A stretch of DNA of 64,000 nucleotides from Candidatus Heimdallarchaeum aukensis (GCA_021513695.1 CP084166.1:992001-1056000); one strand, 5' to 3'. Positions 2,232 through 60,449 are shown, counted from the stretch's first letter. The notes: generated by a model not told the origin, from the letters alone. Numbers and translations are program-made.

Positions 2232-2281
2232 CTATTTTGTCTCCTAACAAGGTTAATAATAAAGTTGAGAAAAATTAATTT

Positions 2282-18841: not shown

Positions 18842-19107
18842 GATATTTTTAGTTAATTTTTTTATCATTCTTTTATTTGAAAAAATAAGTAATACAAAAA
18901 AGAAAATGTATTACGACTTGTTTTTGATTTATCAACTCTAAGCCTATTTAAAAAAATCTTTTAATTAGGAAAAACTATTTTAATGGAATAAAGTGCTTTT
19001 TCAAAAAACTATGTAGTTGAGTGTGGTGCATATAAAATAAATATTTGTGGAGTAACTTTTTACTTTTGTGCATGGTAAGGTTTATAAAAATTTAATAAAA
19101 AAATAAC

Positions 19108-19368
19108 TTGATGATGCAAACGAAGTTTCCTATTCCTTACTCAACGGACAGTGAAAGAGAAGAATTTATTGATCATATGTTTTGCCCTATTTGTAAACTG
19201 TCAAGCAAAAAAGATATTGTCTCTAAGTCCGAGTTAGAAGAGCAAAGAATTACCTATATTGTATTCACTCTTCGTTGTGATAACTGTGATAAACTGTATG
19301 AAGTAACTTTTTTTGACGAAAATCAAATAGATTCAATTGAAAAATTGAAAACTTATTCATTTTATTAA
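19108..19368 (+). CDS. Small zinc-finger protein
   Basis: CPICK...CDNCD (CxxC-x28-CxxC). A TATA-like tttataaa lies about 25 nt upstream of ATG 19111. Confidence 0.4.
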   Translation: MMMQTKFPIPYSTDSEREEFIDHMFCPICKLSSKKDIVSKSELEEQRITYIVFTLRCDNCDKLYEVTFFDENQIDSIEKLKTYSFY

Positions 19369-19613
19369 CTTCTAATTTTATTCATATCTCTAAATCTATT
19401 AAGTTGTTCTTCATCATAGAATTTCAAAGGAAAAACTACAAAAAAATAATTTCACCTGATAATGGTCAAATTAAAGGTGTAGTTCTCTTCTTCTTTCTTT
19501 TTTGTTGTAAACAACAACAATGATTACTTGTTTTACACTTTGGACAATACATTCTGATCTTTAACTATATGAATTTTTCATTTGTTCCTTTATATGTTTA
19601 AGTAAACACAAGC

Positions 19614-20699
19614 TTATCTCCAGTCAAAATAAACTGAACTAAACTTTTCTGGAATTTCGATATTGTTAAGTAAAATAATGTCGAAACTTAATTTCTTAGG
19701 GAAAAATACAAAGTTAGCTTTTTGTAAAGGCTTAGAGTTATAATACGGAATATAAGGAGATTGTAATCCAACCCATCCTTTTGCATTACTTGTTTCTGAT
19801 AAGTACAGACTTAAATCTTTTGCTTCTTGTATAGATAGGTTTTTTATGTGGATAATGTCGATCCAACCAAAGGGAATAGAATTCCCAAAACCTGCTAATT
19901 GAAATTCCCAAGCAAGCATGAATCCTTTAACTTCTTTATTTTTTTCATAAATAACACAATTAGTAATTGGTTGTTCTAGTAACCATTTAAAATCTTCAAA
20001 GTTTGGCTCTATAGATGCGTTAAAATCTTTAGTTAGATTAGTAATCAACTCAAATAAAATAGGGATATCATCTTTTCTAAATTTCCTAAGATTTGCTCTG
20101 TTTTTTATTTTCTTATTCTTTTCTTTCAATTTGAAAAAATATTTTTCGTAAAATTTTAGTTTAACAACTTTTGAAACCTTTTCTGAATTGAAAACCCTAA
20201 TGATGAACTTGTTAGTTTCATATGGACGAAAAACTTGAAAACTTTTTTCTCTAGCAACTGACAAAGCTGTATCAATTCCATGTTGTAGGTTTTTTGGGCT
20301 TAATTCCTAGAGAATTTAGGATAAAGAAAGAAACTTACAAATTTGCTATTCCTGCTTGGTTAGCTGTACATCACCAACATAGAAGAAAAGGTTTAGCAAA
20401 AATGATGGGCAAAAAGATGCTTGAGATTGCTCAACAGGAATCATTTGATGGAGGTCTTGCTTTATTTGAACCAGAACAACATCGTTTGTTTTCTTGTAAA
20501 CAGCTCTAACAAAATAGTTTTTCTTAACTGTTGGAGAACCAAAAATTAACTTTATAGTTTTACCAGAAAAAAGAATAGAAGCTCCTTCTTCAATAGCTGC
20601 AGGGTCAGATAAGAAAGATTCAGAGAGTAGATCAGCTATTTTATTGTATTCTTTTTCTTCCAGCGTATATTGTTCTATTAGATAATCCTCATTATTCAT
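19614..20699 (-). pseudogene. Two-domain GNAT-family acyltransferase gene interrupted by an internal 203-bp inversion
   Basis: The N-terminal part reads on the minus strand (20699 down to about 20483, MNNEDYLIEQY...KKTNDV). The middle part reads on the PLUS strand (20280-20482) and contains the acetyl-CoA motif HQHRRKGLAKMMG. The C-terminal part reads on the minus strand again (20279 down to 19614). See the inversion finding. Confidence 0.7.
20280..20482. other. Inverted DNA segment bounded by the 7-bp inverted repeat atgttgt / acaacat
   Basis: atgttgt sits at 20280-20286 and acaacat at 20476-20482. Reverse-complementing 20280-20482 joins all three GNAT pieces in frame at both junctions (...KKTNDVVGFLGLIPREF... 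and ...LFEPEQHGIDTALSVAREK...). Confidence 0.75.
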
Positions 20700-20854
20700 C
20701 TGTTTCAAAAACTTGAAGTTGTTTTTATTTTTTTCTCGATTTAAGAAAAAAGAGAAGTCAAAGATTTTTACAATTGAACAGTAATAGTCTAAGTTCGACA
20801 ATAATAGTCTATATCCGATAGTAATAATAAACACTTTATTAATACAACGATAAA

Positions 20855-21361
20855 TTGAAAAGTTTTATATTTGTGTGTTATTTTATTAAAGTGGCAAAGA
20901 AAAATAAAGGAAGAAGAAAAGTGATTGAGTCAGTCTATATTATTTCCCGAACAGGATTACCTTTACTTTATGTAGATTTTGTTTCACAAGAAGATGATGT
21001 AGATGCCGTAACTTTATTTTCTGGAATAATTTCAGCGATACAAGTAGCAATGGCTGAAATTGATGTAGGTGTTCCGTCATTCTTTGATACAGAAAAAAAT
21101 GAAATCTTCATGAATGTAACAGAAAAATTTGCTATTGCTGTAGTAAAAAACCAAGAACCAATAGATAGAAATGAAATGAATAAACTAATGGATCAAATTC
21201 AAACCCTAGTATCATTTGATCAAGAAGTGGAAGATTTTAGTACCATTAGTGATGAAACAAAAAATAAAATTTCCAAAAAAATAAGGGAAATAGTTAATAA
21301 CTGGGAAGACTATATTAGCGAGAGAGAAGCAACAAAAAGAATAACGGAATCATTATGGTAA
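20855..21361 (+). CDS. Roadblock/LC7- or longin-like small protein
   Basis: VIESVYIISRTGLPLLYVDF...TLFSGIISAIQVAMAEI...EIFMNVTEKFAIAVVKNQ follows the alpha-beta-beta-alpha-beta-beta-beta pattern typical of roadblock/MglB-type domains. The probable start is GTG 20891, about 25 nt after a TATA-like ttttatattt. Confidence 0.45.
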   Translation: MKSFIFVCYFIKVAKKNKGRRKVIESVYIISRTGLPLLYVDFVSQEDDVDAVTLFSGIISAIQVAMAEIDVGVPSFFDTEKNEIFMNVTEKFAIAVVKNQEPIDRNEMNKLMDQIQTLVSFDQEVEDFSTISDETKNKISKKIREIVNNWEDYISEREATKRITESLW

Positions 21362-21378
21362 AAAGGTGAAAAATACAA

Positions 21379-22122
21379 ATGGTTGTCTGGCAAAATAAAA
21401 TTCCAATAAGTTCTATAATCTTTGAACTAGTGGTTGTTATTGCGCTAACTTTTATGGTAATAACAATTTTTGCAAGGTATTTTGCAAAAAGAAAAAAACC
21501 TGTGTTATATCTGGCTTTAGCATACCTGTTTTACGATCTTGCAACTTTAACAAGCTGTATCGGTCGGTGGTTAGGTTATTTCTCTTCAATTCCCTATACC
21601 GAGTTCTCATATACTGACTTTACAACCTTATTTGCATATGTGCTAATGGCTATAGCGAACGTATTTATTGCTGCATTTATTGACACAATATTTATTCAAA
21701 AAGGAGTAGATTTTGTCGCATTCTTTGCTATATTGAGCGGAATAATAATAGGTATGATAGTCCCTATACTGAATTTTGAATGGGGAAACATGAGATCACA
21801 TGTCTTAATAGTATCTTACCATTTAATACTTTCAATATTAATATTTCTAATACTAGCAATTGTGTCTTTAAGAGAAGCTAAAATGAATAAAAAGAAAATA
21901 GCAAAAATAGGTTTCGCTCTAATTGGAACCTATGCTATATTCATGATTCTATTATTTGTTTCATTTACATCAGATTCACTGCTTATAACTTATGTAGACG
22001 CATTTTCAAAGGGATACTCTCCTGCATATTACTTTGGATGGACACTTTTAGTTATAGGATCAATAATAGGTTATCTTGGACTAATTATGCCTAAATGGTT
22101 CGTAAAGATGCTTAAGTTATAA
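21379..22122 (+). CDS. Seven-transmembrane protein, unknown function
   Basis: Seven hydrophobic helices can be counted in 247 aa. It starts 17 nt downstream of the roadblock-like gene. Confidence 0.55.
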   Translation: MVVWQNKIPISSIIFELVVVIALTFMVITIFARYFAKRKKPVLYLALAYLFYDLATLTSCIGRWLGYFSSIPYTEFSYTDFTTLFAYVLMAIANVFIAAFIDTIFIQKGVDFVAFFAILSGIIIGMIVPILNFEWGNMRSHVLIVSYHLILSILIFLILAIVSLREAKMNKKKIAKIGFALIGTYAIFMILLFVSFTSDSLLITYVDAFSKGYSPAYYFGWTLLVIGSIIGYLGLIMPKWFVKMLKL

Positions 22123-22593
22123 TTAAATTAAATAAAATATAAAATCACTTTTTTCTTTTTTTTTAATATTACTTCATTATTCATGAGTTGAAATTTTACT
22201 TAATTTCTTCAGGACTCTACCCAACCAGTCAACAAACATATCGAAAGTTGTGAGGACTGGGTTAAGAGAACATGAAAGACACAGTCTTAATTAAGTTCTC
22301 TAGGGGGTTCATCTCCTGATTCCGGGCACTCATCACTCCCACAGGGAAGACCGGGTGTCGTAGGAATGAAACCTACGTCTTTAAGCATCTAGCTCAAGAC
22401 ACTATATAAATGATAATTGATTATATAAAGACAGCTGAAAAGTCTTGACACTCCCCCATATCGTGTAATCTTTCTAATAACTCCACAAACTAAAAATTTA
22501 GTTCTTTACGTAAAAAAGTATTTCATCTATATTTGTGTTAAGCAAAAATGGTTGATGAAACATATTCTTTATAAAAGTTAATGTGAAAGATAA

Positions 22594-23313
22594 ATGCGTA
22601 ATGTGGGTTTTATGAACAAATCATCCGTGAAAAGAAATTTAATGATTGTAAGAGAACAGGATGTTGTTGTTACTGGCGGTGTGGTTTTTATTGGAGATGG
22701 ACATACTGGCAAAACGCATACAGCTCTTAATCTTGTAAGAAATAAGGATAGATATAAGAAAACAGACTTGATCTCGAAGTCAATAAATGTAGAATTTGAC
22801 TATTTTGTTTATCAATCTAATTACCAACAGTATAAATTTACAATAAGTGCACAATTGTTTATATTTCCCGGGCAAAAAGGACGAGCGAAAAAAGGAGAAG
22901 GGTTAGCATTTGAGGATGCTCTAGACCTGTATTTTGATGTTAGAACGGTGAAAGAGGTTATTGTTCTAATACTAACTTTCAATCTTACAGATATAGCTAC
23001 ATTTCAAAACTTAGAATATTGGGTTAAAACAGCTATAGAGAATAATTTAGTCTCAGAAGCAACTAACATAATTTTGTTAGGTACTCACTACGATAAGAAA
23101 TCAAACATTGCTGTGAATGAAACAGATATTATACATGGAAAAAAATTTGTTCAAGAACAAATTGCTAATGAATTGAATATTGATTTTCCTCTGAAACAGA
23201 TCACTGAAGTGAATATATCAAATTTGACAGAAGAAGGTATCGAAAATTTAATTGGAGCGATTATAGACGCTTTTTTCAACGTTTTTAATATAGATGAGTT
23301 TAATTTAATTTAG
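22594..23313 (+). CDS. Ras-superfamily small GTPase (divergent)
   Basis: G1 GDGHTGKT, G3-like FIFPGQKG (DxxGQ variant) and G4-like LLGTHYDKK (NKxD variant). A TATA-like ctttataaaa lies about 25 nt upstream. Confidence 0.65.
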   Translation: MRNVGFMNKSSVKRNLMIVREQDVVVTGGVVFIGDGHTGKTHTALNLVRNKDRYKKTDLISKSINVEFDYFVYQSNYQQYKFTISAQLFIFPGQKGRAKKGEGLAFEDALDLYFDVRTVKEVIVLILTFNLTDIATFQNLEYWVKTAIENNLVSEATNIILLGTHYDKKSNIAVNETDIIHGKKFVQEQIANELNIDFPLKQITEVNISNLTEEGIENLIGAIIDAFFNVFNIDEFNLI

Positions 23314-23334
23314 AAATAAAAAAGGTAAAAAGAA

Positions 23335-26300
23335 ATGAAGTTTCAAAAGCATATAATAATCACAATAAATTTTTTATTAATTTTACAGTCATTGTTATAT
23401 ATTCAAAATATTAGCAATTCACAAAAAGATAGACAGAATATTACTCAGATTATCCCAGGAAACATTGAAAACAATCAACAAGAGAGTATTTATCATTCAG
23501 ATGTTTCCTCAACAAATGTACATACAACTCTTACTCAAGGAACAAACAAAACTTTTGGTTTCTTTACGCAAGATAGCTATGTAAATTTAGATTCTGATGG
23601 AAATGTGTTTCAATGGGAAAAGTATGATGTTGTAAAAGATACAGGTGATAATAGTGTTTATGCTGATTTTGCAATGGATTACTCTTATTCTTATACTTGG
23701 CCAAGTTCTCCTAATAGCTATGTTCCATTAATTGATATTGAAACAGGAACACAACTAGCTTCAACCTTTAGTCCTCCTTTTTCAGAGACTACTTATCTAT
23801 CAGGAAAAGTTTACTTCTTAACATATATTTCCACTTATGTATCAAGTTTTACCATTACTTTAACTCTCAGAATTCGATTGTGGTTATATAATCCTAATGA
23901 TGGAGGACTTACAGAAATTTTAACTATCGAATCTGTTCTTCCCGATAATTCTGATTTAACACAACGTGTTTATTCTTCAACTTTAGAAGATAAAGTTACC
24001 ATCCCCTCAGGTTATAGATTAAAAGTAACTTATGAAGCAAAAACGAGCAGAATAGATAGAGCTGCTTATGTTCATCTTGAAACTGGAGAATATTCAGATG
24101 GTGACCAAGTTAACTGGCAGATAAATGACGCAGAGTATTCTAACACTTATACTTTAAATGACGTTACTTCAGCTCTAGGTGTACAGTTGTATATGTATGA
24201 TGAAACATATCCTACTATTTCAATTTCTGGAGCAGAAAACAATACGATTTATTACGATACTAATGAAATAACAATCAGTACATCTGGAGCAGTAAGTAAT
24301 TCCTACAAATGGGACAGTAATTCATATACTGCTTTTGATCCTCCTGTGAATACAACTCTCCCTTCATCAACAGGTTGGCATTATTTGTATATTCAAGCAC
24401 TAGATGAATATGATAACAAAAATGAAGTAGTATACAAAATAGGCTATGAAAGTTCTAGCATAGTTTTACATAATGCAAACAATAATTCTTTAGTTCCAAA
24501 TAATTTTCTTCTTAACTTTAGTTTGTCTGGATACGATTCAGCGCAATATGCTTGGGATAGTGGAGGAAATTATACTTTTTCTGATCCTTATGACATTTCA
24601 GTACCAGATTTCTCAGGAGAGCACACACTCTATATTTATACAGTAAGCAGCTTTGGAGAAAATAAAACTGTTTATGTTTTTGAAGTTGATAACAGCCCGC
24701 CCTTAATCTCCTTAAGAGACTTAAGCAACGATACTACACAACCTACAAACAAGAAAATTGAACTGAATATTACAGATCAAACTTCAACTATTGAAGTTCT
24801 ATATAATTGGGATAATGTTGCTAATTCAACCTGGAGCCCATTAGAAGGAACAATCTACCAAACTTTTGCTCCAGATACTGATGGTTTTCATTGGCTCAAT
24901 GTATATGCAAACGATAGTTTTGGTCATATTATTGATGTACATTACAGATTTAATATTAGTTCAGACTATTTGCTGGTAGAATTAAGAACAATGATAAATG
25001 ACAGTTATTATTACGGAGGAAACACAGTTGAGGTTACGATTACAGGTACAAATGGGACAATAAAGTATCAGTGGGACTCAAATGGATTCAAAGATGGGGT
25101 AACAGTTGATTCAATCTTGTCTTTATCAGGTTCAGAATCATTACCGAAAGACCTTGGAGTGCATTATCTTACAATAATAGTTGGAGATGTAGATGACAAT
25201 CCCAAATCAACTTTGTTTAAATTTACAATTGACCAAGAAAATCCTGTAGTTTCTAATTTTGGAAATTACAATAATTCAAGATTACACAGTTCCACAATAA
25301 TTGATCTTGAAATAACAGATAATTTTACTTTAAGTAGTGAAATAGAAGCATGGGTATCAATAGATGGAGGAGGAAATATATCTTTTACGTATCCCTATGA
25401 TATTAAAATATCTTCTTTAGAAGATGGAGTTCATAATATTACTGTTTTTGCCTTTGATATTGCGCGAAATAATGTTTCTTGCTTAATAATTTTTGAAATT
25501 GATACGACAGCTCCAGAAATAGATATTGTTTCCATTCAAGGGTTAGAAGTTTCTTCTAGCGGTGTTTCATATATTCCCGGAAATGCAGCAATTGAATGCT
25601 CTTTTGTTGATGCAGACCCCGAAATTTATCACTTTTATTCATGGAATAACTCAGCTTTTACACTATTTGCTGGAAATACTTTTAATTTACCTGATACTGA
25701 TGGAAACGCAACCCTACGCATTTTAGCTAATGATACATTAGGAAATGAGAAAATTTTAACATTAGATCTTTTTATAGACACTACTCCTCCTCAATTGTCT
25801 ATACTGTTTCCTAATAACTACTCTAAAATCAATGAAGCGACACCTTTATTGTTTTTTGCTAATGATAGTGCAAGTGACACCATTTCTTCAATTTCTGCAA
25901 AATGGGACCAATTTCTAGAAGGAAAAATAGACCTTTCTCCACCTTATTTTACAATTTATTTATCAAGTCTTAAAAAACTCTATGAAGAGTTATCAGTTGC
26001 AGAGTTATATATTGATGCAAAAGATATTCTAGGAAATAATTTTACGTATATTTATTCATTTAATCTTGATTTTTCTCCGCCTTCCTACAATTTAGTAGGT
26101 GCCCAAAATAATACTTTTGTAAGAAGTGATACAATCCTTCAATTTGAAAATTTAAGTAATGACTTAATGAAGTTCGTTTATTATTGGGATTCTAATGATA
26201 TATCTATCTTAGATGATCCGTGGACTATATCAATACCAAATAATGATGGGGTACATAATCTTACAGTAATTCTTTACGATAACACAGGTGAGGGATATTA

Positions 26301-27942
26301 CCCAAATTGGGTTAAATCATTTTACACTTTTGTTGTTGATGATATTGGGATTGAAATTACTAGTCCGTCAAGTTTTTCCAATAATACAGAAGTTGGAATT
26401 GTATATAAACAATCATTTACCTTTTCTGTTGATGTCTACGATACAGCAGACAATCAAATTATAGATAATCTTAATTTTGTAATTTTAAACAATACACTGA
26501 ATCTAGAAATAGAGAATGAAACCTTAGATGGAAAAACATATACGATAACCATTCATGGTACAAATGTTGGATCAACAAGATTAATTTTTCAGTTTTCTAA
26601 GGGAAATTCGAATAAACATCAAATTGTTGTTCCTCTTACGATTGAAAAGAAAGAAGGAACAGTTTCATTGTTAGGGACAAGCGTCTTAAGCGTGATATAT
26701 GAAGAAAATTTCACTATAATACTGAATTTAGAGGATGAAAACTCTAATCTTTTAAATATTACCCGGGTGACTGTTAATGGTAGTTTAGTGAGCGATTTTA
26801 TCTATTTAGATGAATATCATGCTATACAATTTAATTATTCTTCAAGAGAAACAATAGGAAAAGGAGAATATAATCTGTTAGTTAATATTGAATCTAATTA
26901 TTACTATGGAGAAAAAATAATTGGCATTGAGGTTAAACCTATCCCTATTATTCTAAGTTTATCAGTCTCAAGTTATACTGTAATTGAAGGTTCTCAAGTT
27001 GCAATTACAGGAACTCTTACTTTTACAAATGGGACTCCGATACCTTCTATAACTCTATACTTTTCTATATATATAGTCTATAAGAATCAGTCCAATAATA
27101 ATGTCATGGCTCTGCCTTCAGAATACGGAAGTAAGGTTGTTTTCTCAGGATTAACTAATTCCTCTGGACAAGTAACGATTGCTTTTGAAATGACTTCAGA
27201 GATAGATTATATTTCAGTTGATTGTTCTTTTGGAGGGAGTAATATCTTTGACACAGTTTACTATGAAATGGAGGAATATATTTATTCTATACCTACTCCA
27301 AAACTTCCAACTTGGATATTATACACAATAATTGGTGGAAGTATTATATTGGCAGCAATAATCTCCTTTGTTGTTTATAAGCTTACTAGACCTAAACCAT
27401 TTGATGAGATATTAAATTCAATTTCTGATAATGATATCGTGATGAACATGACCCGTATCTGCCCTGGTGTTGTTCTATCAATCTTTGATCAACGCAAAGG
27501 TGCAATTCCATTAGTGTCTGATCATTCATTGGATTATAGTTACAGTGGAAGAATTAGGATAGGGCTTGAAAACTTTATGTTGAAAATTTCAGATCAAGCT
27601 TACTCTTCATTGGGCTTTGAAGAGCACCATTCTGGGCGTAGAACAGGAACAATTACTCTACCAAATGAAGGACTTGTAGGTTTTATTCATGGGATACAAT
27701 TGGAAAATAAAGCTGCGAGAGGAGGTTTTGAAAACCTTTCACTTATTGTGCTTGTAGAAAATGAGTACGGGACAATGTTACTTAGTTATCAAGAATACCT
27801 GTATCCCTTAATTGATGAGTTAATTTCCATGCTAAAAAATAAGAAACCGTTGGAGGATATTGAAGAACAATTATCGAATATACGTAGTCAAGCAACAAAA
27901 ACAGTTTTAGCTTCATTAGAATATGAAAATGCAATGTCTTAA
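23335..27942 (+). CDS. Giant (1535 aa) surface protein: repeat-rich ectodomain, single TM helix, cytoplasmic roadblock/longin-like tail
   Basis: N-terminal signal/anchor. At least 7 copies of an approximately 100-aa module with consensus Y-x-WD-S/N ... P-x-x-DG-x-H-x-L-x-V-x-A-x-D-x-x-GN ... F-x-I/V-D. TM helix WILYTIIGGSIILAAIISFVVYKL (about nt 27310-27385). The roughly 200-aa tail is CPGVVLSIFDQRKGAIPLVSD...LVGFIHGIQLEN...LSLIVLVENEYG. Confidence 0.7.
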   Translation: MKFQKHIIITINFLLILQSLLYIQNISNSQKDRQNITQIIPGNIENNQQESIYHSDVSSTNVHTTLTQGTNKTFGFFTQDSYVNLDSDGNVFQWEKYDVVKDTGDNSVYADFAMDYSYSYTWPSSPNSYVPLIDIETGTQLASTFSPPFSETTYLSGKVYFLTYISTYVSSFTITLTLRIRLWLYNPNDGGLTEILTIESVLPDNSDLTQRVYSSTLEDKVTIPSGYRLKVTYEAKTSRIDRAAYVHLETGEYSDGDQVNWQINDAEYSNTYTLNDVTSALGVQLYMYDETYPTISISGAENNTIYYDTNEITISTSGAVSNSYKWDSNSYTAFDPPVNTTLPSSTGWHYLYIQALDEYDNKNEVVYKIGYESSSIVLHNANNNSLVPNNFLLNFSLSGYDSAQYAWDSGGNYTFSDPYDISVPDFSGEHTLYIYTVSSFGENKTVYVFEVDNSPPLISLRDLSNDTTQPTNKKIELNITDQTSTIEVLYNWDNVANSTWSPLEGTIYQTFAPDTDGFHWLNVYANDSFGHIIDVHYRFNISSDYLLVELRTMINDSYYYGGNTVEVTITGTNGTIKYQWDSNGFKDGVTVDSILSLSGSESLPKDLGVHYLTIIVGDVDDNPKSTLFKFTIDQENPVVSNFGNYNNSRLHSSTIIDLEITDNFTLSSEIEAWVSIDGGGNISFTYPYDIKISSLEDGVHNITVFAFDIARNNVSCLIIFEIDTTAPEIDIVSIQGLEVSSSGVSYIPGNAAIECSFVDADPEIYHFYSWNNSAFTLFAGNTFNLPDTDGNATLRILANDTLGNEKILTLDLFIDTTPPQLSILFPNNYSKINEATPLLFFANDSASDTISSISAKWDQFLEGKIDLSPPYFTIYLSSLKKLYEELSVAELYIDAKDILGNNFTYIYSFNLDFSPPSYNLVGAQNNTFVRSDTILQFENLSNDLMKFVYYWDSNDISILDDPWTISIPNNDGVHNLTVILYDNTGEGYYPNWVKSFYTFVVDDIGIEITSPSSFSNNTEVGIVYKQSFTFSVDVYDTADNQIIDNLNFVILNNTLNLEIENETLDGKTYTITIHGTNVGSTRLIFQFSKGNSNKHQIVVPLTIEKKEGTVSLLGTSVLSVIYEENFTIILNLEDENSNLLNITRVTVNGSLVSDFIYLDEYHAIQFNYSSRETIGKGEYNLLVNIESNYYYGEKIIGIEVKPIPIILSLSVSSYTVIEGSQVAITGTLTFTNGTPIPSITLYFSIYIVYKNQSNNNVMALPSEYGSKVVFSGLTNSSGQVTIAFEMTSEIDYISVDCSFGGSNIFDTVYYEMEEYIYSIPTPKLPTWILYTIIGGSIILAAIISFVVYKLTRPKPFDEILNSISDNDIVMNMTRICPGVVLSIFDQRKGAIPLVSDHSLDYSYSGRIRIGLENFMLKISDQAYSSLGFEEHHSGRRTGTITLPNEGLVGFIHGIQLENKAARGGFENLSLIVLVENEYGTMLLSYQEYLYPLIDELISMLKNKKPLEDIEEQLSNIRSQATKTVLASLEYENAMS

Positions 27943-27989
27943 CAAATTTTTTATAGAAAAATAAAACTAATGCTTTTTTTATTTTTTAT

Positions 27990-29462
27990 TTGCACCTAGG
28001 AAAATGTTATTTATTGTTAACGAACTATTGGTATAATAGGAGAAGCAATATGTCTTATCTTTTAGATGAGTTAAAGAGGAAAAAACAAGCTGAAACCGAC
28101 GAAACCATTGATAAAATACTTCTAATGGGACTTCAAGAAGCTGGAAAAACAGCTATTAAAGATGTTGTTTTTTTTGATAAAGATCCTGAAGAAGTTGTAG
28201 AATATATGGCAACAACTCATTATCAAAGACAAATCATTGGAGACAAAAAAAAGAATTTACTTATCGATTCAGGAGGACAAGAAACTTACTGGAACGAAGC
28301 AGTAACATATTTTCGCTACTTGATTTTTTCTAATGCTAAAATCCTTATTTGGGTGGTAGATTTAACTCATCCTGAACTTTTTGATGAATCAGAAAGAAGA
28401 TTTAGCTTCACAATTAGACAATTTAAGAAAGAGAACAAAGATGGAAAGGTCTATGTTTTTTGTCATAAAGCTGATGTTGTTGAACCAGAAAAACTAGATG
28501 CAGTAGTTGAGCATGTAAAAGAACTGTTATCTGATCCCAAATTTGAGATTGAATTTAAAATTACATCAATATTCAAAAAAAATGAGTTAAAGCAAATAAT
28601 GAATAAAATTCTCGAAGAATCTTCAATTGATCAAGAACAAATAGAACTTGTCACTGATGTTGAAAAGAAAATTGAAGAAAGCCCTGAATTTGTTAAATTT
28701 CTAGAAGAACATAAAGCAGATCCACGAGTTAAAGAACTCATGGAATATATTAAACCTCAACCAAAACAATATTTACCTTCATTTGGGAAAGTAGAAGTAG
28801 ATGTGAACCTTGAAAATTATGGTATTATTGAAATCATTATACTTGATAAAGAAACATTGAAGCCAGCAATAGGAGCTTCATCACATATCATCTCTAATAA
28901 AAAACAATCATTTGAATATATTCTGGCTCTTAATTATTTTAAAAACTTAATAAAATCAAAAGAACAGAAAATTGAAGCTCTTGGAAGTACCTTTAGTTAT
29001 CCTGAAGGTGAAGTTCATGCATTGATTTTTAATTTGAAGAATAGTTACATTATAATTACCTCATTTAATGAAATAGATGAAAACATAAAAAAGGAATTAT
29101 ACAAATTTATTCTCAAATTTTCAGATGAAATGGTAAAAGAAAAATCACTCGTTAAAGAAGAAAGCATTTCTAAACCCCCTAGTATAGCAACTGAACAAAG
29201 CGTTGAAATAGAACAATCAATAGCCCAAGAAGTGAAAAAAGATGAAAAGAAGGTTTTTGCAGAAGAAGTTTCTTCAACGCAAAAAGAAACTTTAGTCAAA
29301 GAAGATGAAGAACAAAAACAAATGATAAAACAAGTCTCCTCTGAAAAAGCTAAATTAGAAGAAAAGAAAAATGGAGTAGGTTTAGATATTACAGAGAGAG
29401 ACATAACTAAAATAGCTAAATTTCTATATGATCAGCTGGATAAAGAAAAAAAAGAAGAGTGA
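27990..29462 (+). CDS. Rag/Gtr1-like GTPase with roadblock-like middle domain and charged tail
   Basis: The probable start is ATG 28050 (MSYLLDEL). G1 LLMGLQEAGKTAI, G3 LIDSGGQETY and G4 FCHKADV (the HKxD variant seen in Rag/Gtr1). It continues with IIEIIILDKETLKPAIGASS...GEVHALIFNLKNSYIIITSF, then a K/E-rich C-terminus. Confidence 0.7.
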   Translation: MHLGKCYLLLTNYWYNRRSNMSYLLDELKRKKQAETDETIDKILLMGLQEAGKTAIKDVVFFDKDPEEVVEYMATTHYQRQIIGDKKKNLLIDSGGQETYWNEAVTYFRYLIFSNAKILIWVVDLTHPELFDESERRFSFTIRQFKKENKDGKVYVFCHKADVVEPEKLDAVVEHVKELLSDPKFEIEFKITSIFKKNELKQIMNKILEESSIDQEQIELVTDVEKKIEESPEFVKFLEEHKADPRVKELMEYIKPQPKQYLPSFGKVEVDVNLENYGIIEIIILDKETLKPAIGASSHIISNKKQSFEYILALNYFKNLIKSKEQKIEALGSTFSYPEGEVHALIFNLKNSYIIITSFNEIDENIKKELYKFILKFSDEMVKEKSLVKEESISKPPSIATEQSVEIEQSIAQEVKKDEKKVFAEEVSSTQKETLVKEDEEQKQMIKQVSSEKAKLEEKKNGVGLDITERDITKIAKFLYDQLDKEKKEE

Positions 29463-30686
29463 TTAAACTGGTCTACTTTTTCCAATACTTCTGTATTCAC
29501 AGTTATTGTCAAGAAGAATTGGAATCTCTCTCATTTCAGTTATACATTCATGAATTGGGTATAATTCTATAGTTGTAGTACCAAATCCTTTCTTAATTTG
29601 AATTGCATGCTCAAAATTATCAGCATTCTCTAAAGCTACCTCTAATATTGATTTATGTAATTCTCTTCCACAAATGTCACATTTAAAGTAAATTTGCTTA
29701 TTGATCTTGGTTTCTAATTGTTCTTTGTTTAATATGTTATGAGATTCGAAAAAGGTAATCAATTTATCTTTAACCTTTATTTTAGCAACAGAGATGACTT
29801 CTTCTGTTTTGAACATTTTTCTCATTTGATCACAAATTTCATGAAAAGTAGAAATCTGCTGATTTAACTGTTCTTGCGAAGAAAAAACTGAAGTAATGAC
29901 AAGGTCTTCTTCGATTTCTCTAATAAATATCCTTGAGTCACTCAAAGAAAAGACAATATAATTCAAATCAAGACTAGGTGAGTAGATCTTAACTAGTTCA
30001 GAGCGTAATCTGGAAAGATTGAGATTAACTTCTTTTTCTGGTTCAGAGTATAAAACCAAACCTTTGGAAGTTGATAGGGTTAGAAGATTTAGATTATATT
30101 CTGATACTATCTCTTGAATGTTAGAAGCTTTTGTTAGGTCTCTAGGATAAACAACAGAAAAAATTCTTTGCATTGCATCCCATATATTCTCTTCAAAGAT
30201 AGAAGTTTCATAGATTTCAGAATTGGGATACTTGCTCAACTCAAAAATATCTTTAATTGAACGTGTAATAGCAGCCCTTTTGTCAACAGGAACAACATCC
30301 ATTTTATGGGCGAAAACATAGATTCTAGCGCTAGAACCAATTTTTTTAAGATTATCCAAAGTAAGATCAAAATAATATTTAGAACGCATGATGTTAGAAG
30401 CATCAGAAATATCAACAACATAAATCAAAGCTTTAAGGTCACTAAAAGTTCTTTCAGTATATTTCTCAAAAAGCTCATTTAAATAAGAAGATTGACCTCC
30501 TACATCAACAAGATTAATAGAACTTCCTGCAAAATTGAAAAGCTTACGATTAATTCGAACTGTAGCAGGATTAAGAGAAGTTGCTTGAGGAGCAAAGCCT
30601 TCAAAAACAACTTGACGAATAGAAGTTTTACCAGATTGAGATAACCCCAGAATAACAATTTTTGATTGAAGTGAACGATCATTCAT
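29463..30686 (-). CDS. Rag/Gtr1-like GTPase with roadblock-like domain and C-terminal Cys/His cluster
   Basis: G1 ILGLSQSGKTSI, G3 LVDVGGQSSY, G4 FAHKMDVV. The middle part is LLTLSTSKGLVLYSEPE...IVFSLSDSRIFIREIEEDLVITSVF. The C-terminus carries CDICGRELHK...HEC. Its stop abuts the stop of the convergent GTPase gene (29462/29463). Confidence 0.75.
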   Translation of the reverse strand: MNDRSLQSKIVILGLSQSGKTSIRQVVFEGFAPQATSLNPATVRINRKLFNFAGSSINLVDVGGQSSYLNELFEKYTERTFSDLKALIYVVDISDASNIMRSKYYFDLTLDNLKKIGSSARIYVFAHKMDVVPVDKRAAITRSIKDIFELSKYPNSEIYETSIFEENIWDAMQRIFSVVYPRDLTKASNIQEIVSEYNLNLLTLSTSKGLVLYSEPEKEVNLNLSRLRSELVKIYSPSLDLNYIVFSLSDSRIFIREIEEDLVITSVFSSQEQLNQQISTFHEICDQMRKMFKTEEVISVAKIKVKDKLITFFESHNILNKEQLETKINKQIYFKCDICGRELHKSILEVALENADNFEHAIQIKKGFGTTTIELYPIHECITEMREIPILLDNNCEYRSIGKSRPV

Positions 30687-31002
30687 TATATAATAATTAA
30701 ATCATACGAACTTAAAAAAGTGATTATTATCAAATTTATTTTGCAAAAAAAAGTAATTTCTATTATTCTTTATGCTAAAGGGTATTTGGAAATAAAACAT
30801 GCTTATTACACCCTATTCAAAAATTCAAACTAGTACTTAAAATAACTAAAATAATTTTAGTAAAAGTGAATTTAACATCTATCTAAATCTTAATAAAATT
30901 TTAACATTGTTTGAATTCGGTGGCAAAAAATGGGTGAATACGTTTGTCTACAAAGATTTTATGAATAATAAAGTATTCTCACTTAGCAGACCCACTAAAA
31001 AG

Positions 31003-31100
31003 CCACAGCAGTATTTTTCTAGCTACTTGGAGTTAATAGGTAATACACCTTTAGTTTTTTTGAATAAGGTGAGTAAAGCTATTAACCACGAACTCTATGA
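31003..31100 (+). pseudogene. Short remnant resembling the N-terminus of a cysteine synthase / PLP fold-type II enzyme
   Basis: YFSSYLELIGNTPLVFLNKVSK resembles the LIGNTPLVxLN signature near the N-terminus of CysK/CBS-type enzymes. The similarity is lost within about 30 codons and no full gene follows. Confidence 0.3.
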
Positions 31101-31344
31101 TTTACTTTTTTACGTAAAGTTTTTCGCGCTCTGTCTTGCAAGAGAGAAAACAAGTAAAAGTTTAATCTCTTGAACTCAACCAAGCCATACAATGCTATGA
31201 AGAGGATGAGACAGACATCATACACGAATCGTGGGAATCATAAAGAAGAAAAGAACTAAAAACTCTTTTCTTCACTCCACGAGAGACAAAAAGAAAGAAA
31301 GATTTCCTCCTCCTACAGGAGAGAATTTGTCCTTTCGTTTTTGT

Positions 31345-32802
31345 CTACTGGGACTGCAACCAATGGCTGAGCCCTAGGCAAACAGTGAAATGGGTAGAAC
31401 TGTATCTTTGACCAGTGAGGTAATCAGTGATAGTGTTTCCTTGAGGACTGAAAAGAGCACCAAGGAACTTACGAGCGATATTCATTGCTCCTGTGAGGTC
31501 AGAGTGGAAAGTGTAATTGCAAGAAGAACAATGAACTAAACCTCTTACTGGACGGACAACTTTCCTTCCACAACGAGCACAGTGAGAAGATGTCCCTTTT
31601 TCCTCTATCGTTAATATTCGGTGAGGGTCAAAACCTCTTAATATTAGTGCCCGACGGAGAAGAGTAAGAACAAGGTAAAAATTCCACTGATGAAGTTTCC
31701 TGCGAAACTTACGAGTACTTTTACCTTTCTCTTTTCCTTTCTCCTCGCGAACATGTTTAGGGTAACCTACAACGACGAAAAGGTCATACATTCGCGCATA
31801 GGTCTCTATCGTCTGCACAACCTCACTTACAAATTGGTAAATATAGGCTCGTTTAACGTTTCTATATCTTCTTCGAAGAAGACTAAGAAAACGATAAACT
31901 TGATGTTTTTTACCCGACTGGTCGTTTAAAGCTGCTTTTCTCTGAAGACGGGAAAGTTTGACTTTATATCGATGGTTGACTCTATTCCACTGTTTGGTAT
32001 GCCAGAATTTTATCTCCTTACTTGTTAATTTCTTTTTAGGGGTTAGTAACACTCCTGCAGCAGGAATGTTTATCCCTAGATCTATTCCCAGCACAGCTGG
32101 GGGGAGAGAAGAAGAATTCTCTTCTTTAGGAGGATAAAAAGAAGAAGGAAGAACTCTTAGTTGGAAATACACCCACCATTCATGTGTAGAACGTTTATAT
32201 CTTAGTTCTAAACTTTTCACCCTCCCTTTTTTTAACTCTTTCTGGTGGAAAGTGCTCATCTCTAAAGGTAACCATAACTTCTGATGATAGGAGGTGTTTC
32301 TTCTCCACGTATCTAACGAGTCTCTTATCCCCACCCACCAACGAGTGAGAGTGTTATTCTTCTCTTTAGGTAAATGGACGAGAACGAACCTCTTTGCATT
32401 AATTAGTTGTCTTCTCACTCTCTTTATTGGAGGACGAGTAGAACTGGGTTTATAACCTTGTTCGTATAATTGCACAGCTATATCTCTACATTCTTGAAAT
32501 TCGTTGTGGGAACAATAAGGGAACATTTTCTTCAGGTCGTGAGGAACAGTCTTTCTTCTCTCTTCTTCTTTAACTTTTGAAGTCGTTAGCGTCAATTCAT
32601 CTAGTTTTCCTCTATGAACTCTTATTTTCCCTTTTTTAGTTTTAGCACATATTTTTCTTCTGTTGTGATGAATTATTCTCACATACTTCTCTATTATCCT
32701 CGTGTCTCTCCCCGTTATTCTCCTTAACCTTTCCTTTTTCCTCGTCGTCAACACCTCATTCTTTATTCTCACTTTCAAGGTTTTGACGACGTCCTCCACC
32801 AT
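31345..32802 (-). CDS. tnpB: TnpB (OrfB) RNA-guided endonuclease-like protein
   Basis: RuvC-I LGIDLGINIPAAG, RuvC-II Glu in TIEEKGTSSHC, zinc finger CARCG...CSSCN and RuvC-III HSDLTGAMNIA. The ORF is 485 aa and uninterrupted. Confidence 0.85.
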   Translation of the reverse strand: MVEDVVKTLKVRIKNEVLTTRKKERLRRITGRDTRIIEKYVRIIHHNRRKICAKTKKGKIRVHRGKLDELTLTTSKVKEEERRKTVPHDLKKMFPYCSHNEFQECRDIAVQLYEQGYKPSSTRPPIKRVRRQLINAKRFVLVHLPKEKNNTLTRWWVGIRDSLDTWRRNTSYHQKLWLPLEMSTFHQKELKKGRVKSLELRYKRSTHEWWVYFQLRVLPSSFYPPKEENSSSLPPAVLGIDLGINIPAAGVLLTPKKKLTSKEIKFWHTKQWNRVNHRYKVKLSRLQRKAALNDQSGKKHQVYRFLSLLRRRYRNVKRAYIYQFVSEVVQTIETYARMYDLFVVVGYPKHVREEKGKEKGKSTRKFRRKLHQWNFYLVLTLLRRALILRGFDPHRILTIEEKGTSSHCARCGRKVVRPVRGLVHCSSCNYTFHSDLTGAMNIARKFLGALFSPQGNTITDYLTGQRYSSTHFTVCLGLSHWLQSQ

Positions 32803-32871
32803 TCTTTTCCTTCCTTCTTTTCTTTTTCTGTTTATTTTTTCTCTTGTTTTTTCTTCTTATCTTTTTTTATT

Positions 32872-32899
32872 CTACTTTTTTTCCCTATAAAAACCCCTC
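32872..32899 (-). promoter_or_regulatory. IS-borne promoter block (minus strand gaggggtttttatagggaaaaaaagtag)
   Basis: Near-identical to 4908-4936 of copy 1, with a TATA-like tttttata. Confidence 0.4.
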
Positions 32900-32973
32900 T
32901 CCTCTTTCTCCTCTCCTTTCTTCTCTTTTTTCTCTCCTTCTTCCTCAACAACTGTAAATTACGTGAAAAATAG

Positions 32974-34553
32974 ACACATGGTGACACAGGAAAAATAAAA
33001 TGGAAATTTAAAACTGGGGGATCAATAAGAGCATCTCCAGCTCTAGGAGATCTTAACAATGATGGCTATCTGGATATAGTTATAGGGTCTTCTGATTCTT
33101 ATTACTATGCATTTAATGGAAGAACTAGGACAATCCTCTGGACACTCAAGACAGAACTAATAATAGGGGGAACTGCTCCAACATTGGCAGACGTTGATGG
33201 GGATAACGAACTAGATGTCCTACTTAATGGTAAAAATGTGTATCTTGTTGGAGGAAGAAAGGGCAATTTAATCTCTATTTATAATCAAAATGAAGAGGTT
33301 GGAACTTCTATCACTGTTGGTGATTTGGATAATGATGGCAGTTTTGAGATGATATATGGTTCCAAAAGTGGAAACGTTTTTTGTTATACGATTACTAATT
33401 CTGATAAAACAAGTTATAGGATCTATTGGCAGGGGGATGGTGGTGATTTCTTCAATTCTGGAAACAGTTTTACAATAGATAAAGATGGAGATACTGTTTC
33501 TACTTTCTCTGAAAAAATTATTGGAACAGACCCAGAAAAAAGGATACGGATGGAGATTTTCTTATAGATGGATATGAAATATCTGCTACTAAAACAGACC
33601 CCTTAGTTCAAGATTCAGATAATAATAATATCGGAGACCAGAATGAAGATTTTGATGGTGATGGGTTAACAAACCTAGAAGAATATAAGAAAAAAACAGA
33701 TCCTTTGAGTAGAGACACAGATGAAGATTTTATACCAGATAAAATTGATATTTTCCCAATTTTGTTTCCAGAAGGTTTAATTTATCTCTCTCTATTCTTT
33801 CTTTTATCAATATTAATAGTTTCTACAATAGTAAAAAAGAGAATAGAAAATAAAGGCGATAAAAATGAAAGTCTTATTCTTAAATTTAAAATGAAAAGAA
33901 ATCAAATATTATCAGAGATATCTTGGAAAGGCTCTTATAATAATTACAAAAGTGTTCATTTACAAGCTTTTAGATGGTTTGGAATTTTTGCTATTTCATC
34001 TGCAATAATGATTAATTTTATCATTTATCCACTTTTTAAAACAGAAATTGTTTACCATGATATTGTAAAAACAAGCTATTCTACAGTTATCTATGTTTTA
34101 ATTAATGTTATTTATTTTGCGTTATTTTATTTATTAGGTTCTGGTTTTTACTCGCTAGGGTTTTCAAGTAATGGAGTAACTTTTAGCTATGATTCTATTG
34201 CTACAAACTTGTTTCTTTCTTCTCTTATCATTTTAAGCATTTCTTTCGTAAAAGTATCAATAAACTTAATTTTACTTCCAATTTTAACTTATTTACTTAC
34301 ATCTGCTTTCATCACACTTTATAATATACGAAAGGAAAAGATTACTAATAGTAATAATCTCTTAAACTTTGTTTTCATCCTTTTTCCAATATCTTTTCTA
34401 TCTCTTTTATGGTATCAAACGCTTTCTTTCTATTTTGCTATTCCACAACAAATTTTGAGGATAATTTCTTTGATAACAGGAGTGTTAATGTTTCTTCTAG
34501 CACTAGAAATCTTTACATTATCTACTCTGAATTCTCGTGAAAAAACAAAATAA
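32974..34553 (+). pseudogene. FG-GAP/beta-propeller + thrombospondin-type-3-like repeat + polytopic membrane domain gene, 5'-truncated and frameshifted
   Basis: The frame opens at 32974 in mid-repeat (GKIKWKFKTGGSIRASPALGDLNNDGYLDIVIGS; further FG-GAP-like units LADVDGDNELDVLL and VGDLDNDGSFEMIYGS). Reading shifts from frame 1 to frame 0 at the A6 run 33536-33541. Downstream come DTDGDFLIDGYE, DFDGDGLTNLEEY and DTDEDFIPD (Ca-binding TSP3-like repeats) and about 8 TM helices. Confidence 0.65.
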
Positions 34554-42637: not shown

Positions 42638-42642
42638 TCTTC

Positions 42643-47249: not shown

Positions 47250-47317
47250 TCACACTCTTGATGAATTCTTTACAAATTTATGTAATAAAAATAAAAACTT
47301 TTCTGGAATATCTATGT

Positions 47318-50779: not shown

Positions 50780-50780
50780 T

Positions 50781-60247: not shown

Positions 60248-60449
60248 GCCTTTATAGATTCACAATAGTAAGCAACAGAAAAATTGATTTACGATAGCAA
60301 CTCCGAAATTTTATAACACTAGCTACGATCTATAATATTGCTTACTTTCTGAACTAAAAAAGTAATCTTGCTCAATAAAAGGAAGTTATAACTAAACTAA
60401 ATATCACTTGACATAAGAAAAAAAATTAATCAATTTTGTTTCACGTTTT

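What the first reader, a model, noticed from the sequence alone, without database searches (positions are those of the whole stretch)
19614..20699. A 203-bp intragenic inversion splits a GNAT gene; flipping it back restores one 361-codon ORF
Seen:
- The ORF track shows three pieces on alternating strands: 20346..20834 (-), 20294..20509 (+) and 19614..20264 (-).
- The middle, plus-strand piece carries the GNAT acetyl-CoA motif (HQHRRKGLAKMMG). The minus-strand pieces look like the N-terminal strands and a second GNAT-like domain.
- The segment is bounded by an exact 7-bp inverted repeat, atgttgt at 20280-20286 and acaacat at 20476-20482.
- I reverse-complemented 20280-20482 by hand. Both junctions come out in frame and stop-free: ...AVYKKTNDVVGFLGLIPREFRIKKE... 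and ...GLALFEPEQHGIDTALSVAREKSFQVF.... This gives a continuous ORF from ATG 20699 to the stop at 19614.

Inference: this is either a real inactivating inversion by microhomology, a reversible intragenic inverton that toggles the enzyme, or an assembly artefact. The very short repeat argues against a classical recombinase-driven switch.
Basis: seen in the sequence. Interest (0 to 1): 0.7.

Follow-up and report, generated by a model that had tools for sequence, protein, structure and literature searches.

The report
Inversion-broken NMT-like acyltransferase gene
In this Heimdallarchaeum aukensis genome a 203-bp piece in the middle of a gene for an N-myristoyltransferase-like enzyme has been flipped between two 7-bp inverted repeats, which breaks the gene; close relatives still carry it intact, so this looks like an ordinary recent gene-killing mutation, not a switch.

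Summary
Reverse-complementing window 20280-20482, bounded by ATGTTGT and ACAACAT, rebuilds a 361-codon ORF.

The restored order is real. Five metagenome contigs about 98.5% identical to the window and syntenic with it carry the intact gene. Their protein is 98% identical to the hand-restored one, and the DNA aligns without gaps, so no base was lost or gained. More than 40 single-gene Asgard orthologues cover the full length.

The inverted orientation also appears in two independent Logan assemblies of different sequencing runs. A 7-bp repeat cannot mislead a k-mer assembler, so an artefact is unlikely.

A programmed switch is not supported. The 7-bp repeat is not conserved in sister lineages, no recombinase lies in the 64-kb window, and such repeats are abundant in this 30% GC DNA.

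Best reading: a recent, strain-specific, microhomology-mediated inversion that turns the gene into a pseudogene.

Three extras:
- The gene is an NMT-type double-GNAT enzyme.
- In the sister species H. endolithica the same gene is broken by a TnpB insertion sequence at the CATG overlapping one repeat arm.
- A third lineage carries a frameshift.

The parts
20483..20699 (-). N-terminal piece of the broken gene (codons 1-72, from ATG 20699). In the present arrangement it runs on into 45 nonsense codons and stops at 20346. This is the 117-aa product P0047; the mechanical ORF extends to 20834.
   Evidence: It aligns to L004-L008 at about 98% identity in the same order as in the intact gene.
20476..20482 (.). 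Right arm of the inverted repeat, ACAACAT on the + strand. It is one of the two crossover microhomologies.
   Evidence: The BLAST alignments of flank and inverted segment to the intact relatives overlap here by 4-7 bp.
20287..20475 (+). 189-bp core of the inverted segment. It encodes, on the + strand, codons about 75-138 of the ancestral gene (strands beta4-beta5 and the acyl-CoA loop HQHRRKGLAKMMG). It lies inside the 71-aa ORF 20294..20509 (+), which GenBank annotates as a separate 'GNAT family N-acetyltransferase' (UJG41666.1).
   Evidence: Window 20280-20479 aligns to L004-L008 (98%), L009 (87%) and L010 (94.5%) in the opposite orientation to both flanks.
20280..20286 (.). Left arm of the inverted repeat, ATGTTGT on the + strand. 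It is the second crossover microhomology. In the ancestral gene this arm read ACAACAT in gene sense and overlapped the CATG at gene nt 418-421.
19614..20279 (-). C-terminal piece (codons 141-361, the second GNAT-like domain, ending in the invariant ...YFDWR and the stop). The ORF as called is 19614..20264, 216 aa. This is P0001, K9W45_04160, annotated 'hypothetical protein'.
31097..32979 (-). Resident copy of the TnpB-only insertion sequence (tnpB at 31345..32802, 485 aa). It belongs to the family that interrupts the same gene in H. endolithica. It is flanked by CATG on the left-end side and CATA on the right-end side.
   Evidence: (Pfam Cas12f1-like_TNB).
19553..19554 (.). Junction of a 467-bp deletion relative to the conspecific JGI strains, 60 bp downstream of the gene's stop. 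The missing DNA is a decayed remnant of a 2-kb region with HTH-protein genes that is still present in H. endolithica.

Best explanation
The window comes from Candidatus Heimdallarchaeum aukensis PM71. A single-copy gene for a 361-aa NMT-type double-GNAT acyltransferase suffered a clean 203-bp inversion, or 189 bp between the arms. The crossovers lie in a fortuitous 7-bp inverted repeat, ATGTTGT ... ACAACAT.

The inversion removes strands beta4-beta5 and the acyl-CoA-binding loop from the reading frame. It leaves three fragments: a 117-aa N-terminal stub with a nonsense tail, a 71-aa antisense fragment, and a 216-aa C-terminal domain. The gene is therefore a pseudogene in this strain.

Shown: the event is derived, strain-specific and recent, and it lost or gained no bases.

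Inferred: the mechanism is illegitimate recombination or replication template switching at short inverted microhomology, not a dedicated recombinase. The event is inferred to be a one-off and effectively irreversible.
For: - Ancestral order: the restored ORF is 98% identical to P0049, an intact 361-aa protein. P0049 is encoded on five JGI metagenome contigs (L004-L008) that are 97.4-99.4% identical and colinear with window 13.9-22.9 kb, except that window 20280-20479 is inverted.
- Clean event: gapless alignment after flipping.
- Orthologues: more than 40 Asgard orthologues of 360-399 aa cover 99-100% of the restored order, and none is split this way. H. endolithica (L009) and a third lineage (L010) also have the N-terminal and middle parts in the restored orientation.
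- Not an artefact: two Logan assemblies from different runs (SRR15988954 and SRR15988959) are 100% identical and colinear with the window across both junctions. The published genome was assembled from Illumina reads with k = 21-99 (PMC8813620), and a 7-bp repeat cannot confuse such an assembler.
- Recent: the only defect is the inversion. dN/dS against H. endolithica is 0.12. Lineage-specific changes are 3 synonymous and 3 non-synonymous in the window lineage, the same as in the intact JGI lineage.
- No dedicated site: the left arm is GATGTTGT only in H. aukensis. It is GAGATTGT in L010 and GAAATTGT in H. endolithica. The right arm is ACAATAT in the JGI strains.
- No recombinase: no serine or tyrosine recombinase was found among the 45 ORFs of the window or the neighbours annotated on the JGI contigs.
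- Repeat is ordinary: 7-mer inverted repeats are abundant here, but a random inversion would land on one with probability about 2e-4, so microhomology was used.
Against: - No reads could be mapped. A minority of cells with the restored orientation, and hence reversibility, cannot be excluded.
- Clean two-junction inversions at only 7 bp of homology are rare events.
- Invertases can act in trans from elsewhere in the 3.08-Mb genome, which I could not search.
- The right crossover arm overlaps the exact CATG at which a TnpB insertion sequence sits in the sister species. This hints that the break may not have been purely spontaneous.
Confidence: 0.85

Rival explanations
1. The break was triggered by mobile-element machinery. 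The CATG overlapping the right arm is a target of the resident TnpB insertion-sequence family. A nick or double-strand break made there, by the RNA-guided TnpB nuclease or by the transposase that mobilises the element, was repaired using the nearest inverted 7-bp microhomology, and this produced the inversion. This refines how the event started. It does not deny that the gene is now a pseudogene.
For: - In H. endolithica PR6 (closed genome, L009; also L003) a 1,843-bp TnpB element sits exactly at CAACATG|GAATTG of the same gene.
- All four aligned copies of the family abut CATG on both sides, and L010 shows the empty site with a single CATG.
- The window carries a copy of this family at 31097-32979, and the family is multi-copy in both genomes.
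- With about 6,500 CATG sites and about 31 copies, the chance that this particular CATG is occupied is about 0.005.
- The JGI strains carry CAT>TAT at this very site, which destroys the CATG.
Against: - The coincidence was found post hoc and rests on one case.
- The gene has only two CATG sites, so any insertion of this element into the gene had a 50% chance of landing here.
- The gene appears dispensable. A third lineage (L013) has an unrelated frameshift.
- The left breakpoint has GATG, not CATG.
- From general knowledge, TnpB cuts about 15-21 nt away from its target-adjacent motif, not at it.
- The guide-side flank of the window's copy does not match the gene site.
- No insertion-sequence remnant lies at either junction.
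Confidence: 0.1
2. The segment is a reversible intragenic inverton of the premature-stop type. An invertase encoded elsewhere flips it, so the population toggles the NMT-like enzyme on and off, and PM71 was sampled in the OFF state.
For: - The anatomy resembles the premature-stop intragenic invertons reported by long-read surveys. Those include one archaeal case and cases for which no invertase was identified (PMC10028968).
- Both orientations exist within one species: the JGI strains are ON and PM71 is OFF.
- The inversion is exact and in frame when restored.
Against: - The arms are only 7 bp, versus 11 positions in the thiC inverton of that paper. They are not conserved: 6/7 in the conspecific JGI strains and 4-5/7 in sister species.
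- Each lineage shows a single orientation in every assembly: 5 of 5 JGI, and 3 of 3 PM71.
- The exact restored protein is absent from a 15-billion-protein collection that includes the Logan assemblies of the PM71 runs.
- No recombinase lies in the 64-kb window.
- Longer inverted repeats (8-mers and longer) in the same gene have not flipped.
- Relatives inactivate the gene by other, irreversible routes.
Confidence: 0.04
3. The inversion is an assembly or amplification artefact. It does not exist in the organism and arose from misassembly, or from chimeras formed during the multiple displacement amplification (MDA) used for the Nanopore library.
For: - The paper states that MDA was used before Nanopore sequencing of the H. 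aukensis sample (PMC8813620).
- From general knowledge, MDA is known to produce inverted chimeras at short microhomologies.
Against: - The genome was assembled from Illumina PE150 reads, and Nanopore reads were used only for scaffolding.
- Two independent Logan assemblies from two runs reproduce both junctions at 100% identity over 5.2 kb and 1.8 kb.
- MDA chimeras are single-junction events private to one molecule. They do not give a consensus-level, two-junction, base-perfect inversion.
- A 7-bp repeat is far below any k-mer size used.
Confidence: 0.03

Closest known systems
Spontaneous inversion between short inverted repeats (illegitimate recombination or replication template switching at microhomology) that creates a pseudogene
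   Same: It is a clean inversion with identical short microhomology at both junctions. No recombinase site is involved. It is lineage-specific and disables the gene. The arms are a chance feature of the local sequence.
   Different: Nothing substantive differs. At 7 bp the homology is at the short end for a two-junction event. One arm coincides with an insertion-sequence target used in a sister species.
Intragenic invertons of the premature-stop class (Chanin et al., PMC10028968)
   Same: A segment wholly inside a coding sequence, bounded by inverted repeats. Flipping it truncates the product and splits the gene into several ORFs. The invertase is often unidentified.
   Different: Here there is no evidence of two orientations within one population. 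The repeat is shorter and not conserved among relatives. No recombinase is nearby. Related lineages lose the gene by other, irreversible mutations.
Eukaryotic N-myristoyltransferase (NMT; glycylpeptide N-tetradecanoyltransferase). This concerns the identity of the broken gene.
   Same: It has the double-GNAT fold with the acyl-CoA site in the N-terminal domain. Pfam NMT N-terminal domain scores above its cut-off. All top PDB sequence and fold matches are NMTs (TM 0.75-0.79). The C-terminus is strictly conserved, as expected if the terminal carboxylate is catalytic.
   Different: It is only 14-17% identical to NMTs and is shorter (361 aa). Its activity and substrates are unknown. It is archaeal, whereas NMTs were long reported as eukaryote-only. 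PMC12219266 notes NMT-type folds in archaea and bacteria from AlphaFold models.
IS200/IS605-family TnpB-only elements (IS1341-like). This concerns the element that breaks the orthologue in H. endolithica.
   Same: The single ORF is a TnpB (Cas12f1-like TNB zinc-ribbon domain, GIDLG RuvC motif). It is annotated IS605 OrfB/TnpB by several sources. It is multi-copy and strictly associated with a short target motif.
   Different: It carries no tnpA. CATG is present on both sides, either as a 4-bp duplication or as a motif plus a matching right end. It has roughly 16-bp terminal inverted repeats, which are not typical of IS200/IS605. No Rfam omega-RNA family matched.

Membership tests
Microhomology-mediated (short inverted repeat) inversion | The segment is inverted relative to the ancestral allele, with both flanks colinear | tested here: met
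   Window 20280-20479 aligns in opposite orientation to its flanks against L004-L008, L009 and L010.
Microhomology-mediated (short inverted repeat) inversion | Identical short homology in inverted orientation at both junctions, with no gain or loss of bases | tested here: met
   There is an exact 7-bp arm at each end. The restored gene aligns gaplessly to the intact relatives over 1306 nt.
Microhomology-mediated (short inverted repeat) inversion | The arms are fortuitous and not a conserved recombination site | tested here: met
   The left arm is GAGATTGT in L010 and GAAATTGT in H. endolithica. The right arm is ACAATAT in the JGI strains. The gene holds 102 7-mer inverted-repeat pairs.
Intragenic inverton (programmed, reversible) | Both orientations coexist in reads from one clonal population | not testable with these tools
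   No read mapping is available. Indirectly, every assembly of each lineage shows one orientation, and the exact restored protein is absent from the collection.
Intragenic inverton (programmed, reversible) | Inverted repeats conserved as recombinase sites among relatives | tested here: not met
   The 7-bp repeat is perfect only in the PM71 sequence. It is degraded in conspecific and congeneric sequences.
Intragenic inverton (programmed, reversible) | A site-specific recombinase (invertase) is available | tested here: inconclusive
   None was found among the 45 ORFs of the 64-kb window or the annotated neighbours. The rest of the genome could not be searched, and the source paper reports transposase/integrase families in it.
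NMT-type double-GNAT acyltransferase | Two GNAT folds in one chain, with the acyl-CoA motif in the N-terminal one | tested here: met
   AlphaFold2 model with pLDDT 94.3 and pTM 0.91. Foldseek top 50 hits are all NMTs over 350-408 alignment columns. Pfam Acetyltransf_9 at residues 13-125.
NMT-type double-GNAT acyltransferase | Sequence-level match to NMT models | tested here: met
   Pfam PF01233 NMT N-terminal domain scores 37.8 bits against a cut-off of 25. The profile of 41 homologues against PDB gives an unbroken run of about 35 NMT hits at the top, best E = 1.4e-14, spanning both domains.
NMT-type double-GNAT acyltransferase | The C-terminal carboxylate reaches the active site as catalytic base | tested here: inconclusive
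   All 41 family members end at the invariant W360-R361, which is compatible. I could not measure the geometry in the model.
NMT-type double-GNAT acyltransferase | Transfers myristate to N-terminal glycine | not testable with these tools
   This needs a biochemical assay.
IS200/IS605-family TnpB element | Encodes TnpB (RuvC plus zinc-ribbon TNB domain) | tested here: met
   Pfam PF07282 scores 35.3 bits against a cut-off of 26.3. Homologues are named IS605 OrfB or TnpB by their sources.
IS200/IS605-family TnpB element | Y1 transposase TnpA present, subterminal hairpins, and no target duplication | tested here: not met
   There is no second ORF in the 1.84-kb element. CATG lies on both sides in 4 of 4 copies, and the terminal inverted repeats are about 16 bp. 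It works like a non-autonomous TnpB element, but strict membership is unproven.

The most novel reading that the evidence does not exclude
The 203-bp segment is a reversible premature-stop intragenic inverton in an Asgard archaeon. It would phase-vary an N-myristoyltransferase-like enzyme, with the flip catalysed in trans at a 7-bp site that overlaps a hotspot for a mobile-element nuclease.
Probability: 0.04. Interest if true: 0.75.

Novelty: new member of a known kind. Interest (0 to 1): 0.3.

Why it matters
The inversion itself is an ordinary mutation. Three practical points follow from it.

1. The public annotation of the closed H. aukensis genome lists the fragments as separate genes: a 71-aa 'GNAT family N-acetyltransferase' and a 216-aa hypothetical protein. 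They should be marked as one pseudogene. Comparative inventories of Asgard 'eukaryote-like' proteins would otherwise miscount this strain.

2. The broken gene belongs to a conserved Asgard family that is the closest prokaryotic sequence and fold match to eukaryotic N-myristoyltransferase. Both closed Heimdallarchaeum genomes lack a working copy at this locus, whereas environmental conspecifics keep it. Anyone who wants to test archaeal N-terminal lipidation should use the intact alleles, such as P0049.

3. Three independent disruptions in one family suggest the enzyme is dispensable under some conditions. They are an inversion, an insertion sequence and a frameshift, and two of them fall at the same CATG. 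They may also point to a break-prone site linked to a TnpB element.

Tried and rejected
- An exact DNA-pattern scan of metagenome contigs with a 33-nt stretch from inside the inverted segment, meant to count both orientations, returned nothing. That collection evidently lacks the JGI contigs found by protein look-up.
- The follow-up protein scan gave one useful locus, L010.
- The genome-contig scan returned only H. endolithica. The H. aukensis genome itself was not retrievable, so paralogues, invertases and the other insertion-sequence copies of PM71 could not be examined.
- The look-up of P0051, an H. aukensis TnpB copy, was not on record.
- I first read L003 as a 12.6-kb inversion sharing the breakpoint. 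L009 showed a simple 1.84-kb insertion with the N-terminal and middle parts of the gene upstream, so I rejected that reading.
- I considered that the flanks of the insertion sequence in the window resemble the gene site. I rejected this as weak. The left flank is a cysK-like gene fragment and the right flank a beta-propeller gene.
- I considered elevated decay of the fragments as a dating tool. The counts are too small to use: 3 synonymous and 3 non-synonymous changes in each lineage.
- Literature searches for an Asgard N-myristoyltransferase found no paper in the library that reports one. The source genome paper does not mention inversions, TnpB or pseudogenes.
- The Rfam scan of 19000-33200 found no RNA family.

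Full report
**Observation**

- One search lists the three ORFs on alternating strands.
- One search confirms ATGTTGT at 20280-20286 and ACAACAT at 20476-20482. The flanking bases do not extend the repeat.
- Reverse-complementing 20280-20482 produces one stop-free ORF of 361 codons, from ATG 20699 to the stop at 19614.

**Is the restored order real?**

Pfam places an Acetyltransf_9 GNAT domain and the NMT N-terminal domain on the restored protein. A search of 5.8 billion proteins returned more than 40 Asgard proteins of 360-399 aa that cover 99-100% of the restored order at 35-54% identity. The only 100% match was the 216-aa C-terminal fragment, named as Candidatus Heimdallarchaeum aukensis on a 3.08-Mb contig.

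An exact look-up showed that the restored sequence itself is not in the collection. The 71-aa middle fragment, however, clusters with P0049, a 361-aa protein that is 355/361 identical to my restoration. P0049 is encoded on five JGI metagenome contigs, L004-L008.
- These contigs are 97.4-99.4% identical and colinear with window 13.9-22.9 kb.
- The exception is window 20280-20479, which aligns in the opposite orientation.
- After flipping, the window gene aligns to them without a single gap. There are 13-14 substitutions in the 1086-nt coding sequence.

The inversion is therefore derived, clean and specific to the PM71 lineage within the species.

**Artefact?**

Two Logan assemblies of different runs are 100% identical and colinear with the window across both junctions. 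They are SRR15988954 (5.9 kb) and SRR15988959 (1.8 kb).

The source paper says the genome was assembled with SPAdes from Illumina PE150 reads. Nanopore reads came from MDA-amplified DNA and were used only for scaffolding (PMC8813620). A 7-bp repeat cannot mislead a k = 21-99 assembler. MDA chimeras are single-junction events private to one molecule. I rate an artefact at about 3%.

**Switch or accident?**

Several results argue against a programmed inverton.
- The 7-bp repeat is perfect only in this genome.
  - The conspecific JGI strains have ACAATAT in one arm. This is the H140Y change; H is the residue in the other orthologues examined.
  - A third lineage (L010) has GAGATTGT at the other arm, and H. 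endolithica (L009) has GAAATTGT.
- The restored gene contains 102 7-mer inverted-repeat pairs and 29 8-mer pairs. The window has about 84 such pairs per kb at 30% GC. The repeat is ordinary. Still, a random inversion would land on one with probability about 2e-4, which implicates microhomology in the mechanism.
- Pfam scans of the 45 ATG-started ORFs of at least 110 aa in the window found no serine or tyrosine recombinase. The JGI annotations of the neighbours agree.
- Every assembly of each lineage shows one orientation.

Premature-stop intragenic invertons are a known class, with one archaeal example (PMC10028968). Without reads I cannot exclude low-level flipping. I put it at about 4%.

**Age and consequence**

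The inversion is the only defect. dN/dS against H. endolithica is 0.12. The window lineage has 3 synonymous and 3 non-synonymous private changes, the same as the intact JGI lineage. The event is recent.

It removes codons about 73-140 from the frame. These encode strands beta4-beta5 and the acyl-CoA loop of the N-terminal GNAT domain, according to the model. The remaining products are a 117-aa stub, a 71-aa antisense fragment and a 216-aa C-terminal domain. GenBank annotates the last two as separate genes. I infer loss of function.

**What the gene is**

- A profile of 41 family members against PDB sequences returns an unbroken run of about 35 N-myristoyltransferases at the top. The best has E = 1.4e-14 and spans both domains.
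- An AlphaFold2 model has pLDDT 94.3 and pTM 0.91.
- By Foldseek the model matches only NMTs in the top 50, with E about 7e-21 and TM 0.75-0.79.
- All 41 members end at the invariant W360-R361. This fits NMT's use of the C-terminal carboxylate as catalytic base, as described in PMC12219266. I did not test the geometry.

That paper also notes that NMTs were reported as eukaryote-only, yet NMT-type double-GNAT models exist in archaea and bacteria. I found no paper in the library that reports an Asgard NMT homologue.

**The sister species**

In the closed genome of H. endolithica PR6 (L009; L003 is 97.5% identical) the same gene is broken differently. The N-terminal and middle parts are in the ancestral orientation. 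A 1,843-bp element carrying a TnpB gene then follows, inserted exactly at CAACATG|GAATTG, and then the C-terminal part. Removing the element and one CATG restores an intact 1086-nt ORF. L010 shows the empty site.

The window carries a copy of the same element at 31097-32979. Four aligned copies all abut CATG on both sides; the window's right-end side reads CATA. The family is multi-copy.

The CATG in question lies at gene nt 418-421 and overlaps the right repeat arm at nt 414-420. With about 6,500 CATG sites per genome and about 31 copies, the chance that this particular site is occupied is about 0.005.

This observation is post hoc and rests on a single case.
- The gene has only two CATG sites.
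- A third orthologue (L013, conserved synteny) carries an unrelated 1-nt frameshift. Relaxed selection on the gene therefore explains much of the coincidence.
- I keep a break triggered by the insertion sequence or TnpB as a 10% refinement.

**Verdict**

This is a real, recent, strain-specific, microhomology-mediated inversion that pseudogenises an NMT-type double-GNAT gene (confidence 0.85). It is an ordinary kind of mutation, so interest is modest. The lasting value lies in correcting the annotation and in flagging the Asgard NMT-like family and its repeated loss.

Noticed in passing
window 19614-20699 (restored); proteins P0049, P0002-P0046: The broken gene belongs to a conserved Asgard family (Heimdall, Loki, others) of about 363-aa double-GNAT proteins. 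Their best sequence and fold matches are all eukaryotic N-myristoyltransferases (profile E = 1.4e-14; Foldseek TM 0.75-0.79). All 41 aligned members end in the invariant W-R, within a conserved ...YFDWR C-terminus.
   Followed up: partly
L009 6164-8006 (H. endolithica CP084167.1); L003 1-992: In the sister species the orthologous gene is interrupted by a 1.84-kb TnpB-only insertion sequence. It sits at the CATG that overlaps the right repeat arm of the PM71 inversion. Removing it restores an intact ORF.
   Followed up: yes
L013 3001-4088 (Ga0366833_1006749): A third Heimdallarchaeaceae orthologue (58% identity, same flanking genes) has a 1-nt frameshift at ...AWEF|NLAG.... It splits the gene into frames 1 and 3. 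This is a third independent disruption of the family, if it is not a sequencing error.
   Followed up: partly
window 30907-33060: The window's copy of the TnpB element (31097-32979) separates a short N-terminal fragment of a cysteine-synthase-like (PLP enzyme) ORF (motif ELIGNTPLV) from a beta-propeller-repeat gene fragment. Homology to H. endolithica resumes exactly at the element's left end (32978). Window 22.2-31.1 kb is absent from the corresponding H. endolithica locus.
   Followed up: partly
window 31097-32979; L009, L011, L012: This TnpB family has roughly 16-bp terminal inverted repeats and CATG on both sides in all four copies. That is not the classical IS200/IS605 anatomy of no duplication and subterminal hairpins. 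No Rfam omega-RNA family matched.
   Followed up: partly
window 19553/19554: PM71 lacks 467 bp that are present in the conspecific JGI strains, 60 bp downstream of the gene. That DNA is a decayed remnant of a 2-kb block (161-aa and 363-aa HTH-protein genes) still present in H. endolithica. Paralogues of these genes lie at window 1086-2740.
   Followed up: partly
L004-L008, gene nt 418: The conspecific strains with the intact gene carry CAT>TAT (H140Y). This falls in the EPEQHG motif that is conserved across the family, and it destroys the CATG used by the insertion sequence.
   Followed up: no
window 20855-30686: The NMT-like gene sits near a cluster of eukaryote-like small GTPase genes. They are a Ras-like gene (22594-23313) and two Gtr1/RagA-like genes (28050-29462 and 29463-30686). 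A faint Roadblock/LC7-like ORF (20855-21361) and a 1535-aa protein without Pfam hits (23335-27942) are also there.
   Followed up: no
window 41501-53597: This is a possible defence island. It holds an N6/N4 DNA methylase with a RAMA domain, an AAA_15/AAA_21 ATPase with DUF3696, a 1153-aa ResIII helicase-like protein and a 938-aa protein without hits. A HEPN-domain protein lies at 34991-36031.
   Followed up: no
window 5459-6208: A second, truncated TnpB-like ORF (249 aa; OrfB_IS605 plus TNB domains) of a different family.
   Followed up: no
window 59681-61478: A full-length DUF2804 gene (342 aa) lies next to a 188-aa ORF that matches only the C-terminal half of the same domain. This is a truncated tandem duplicate or another broken gene.
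   Followed up: no
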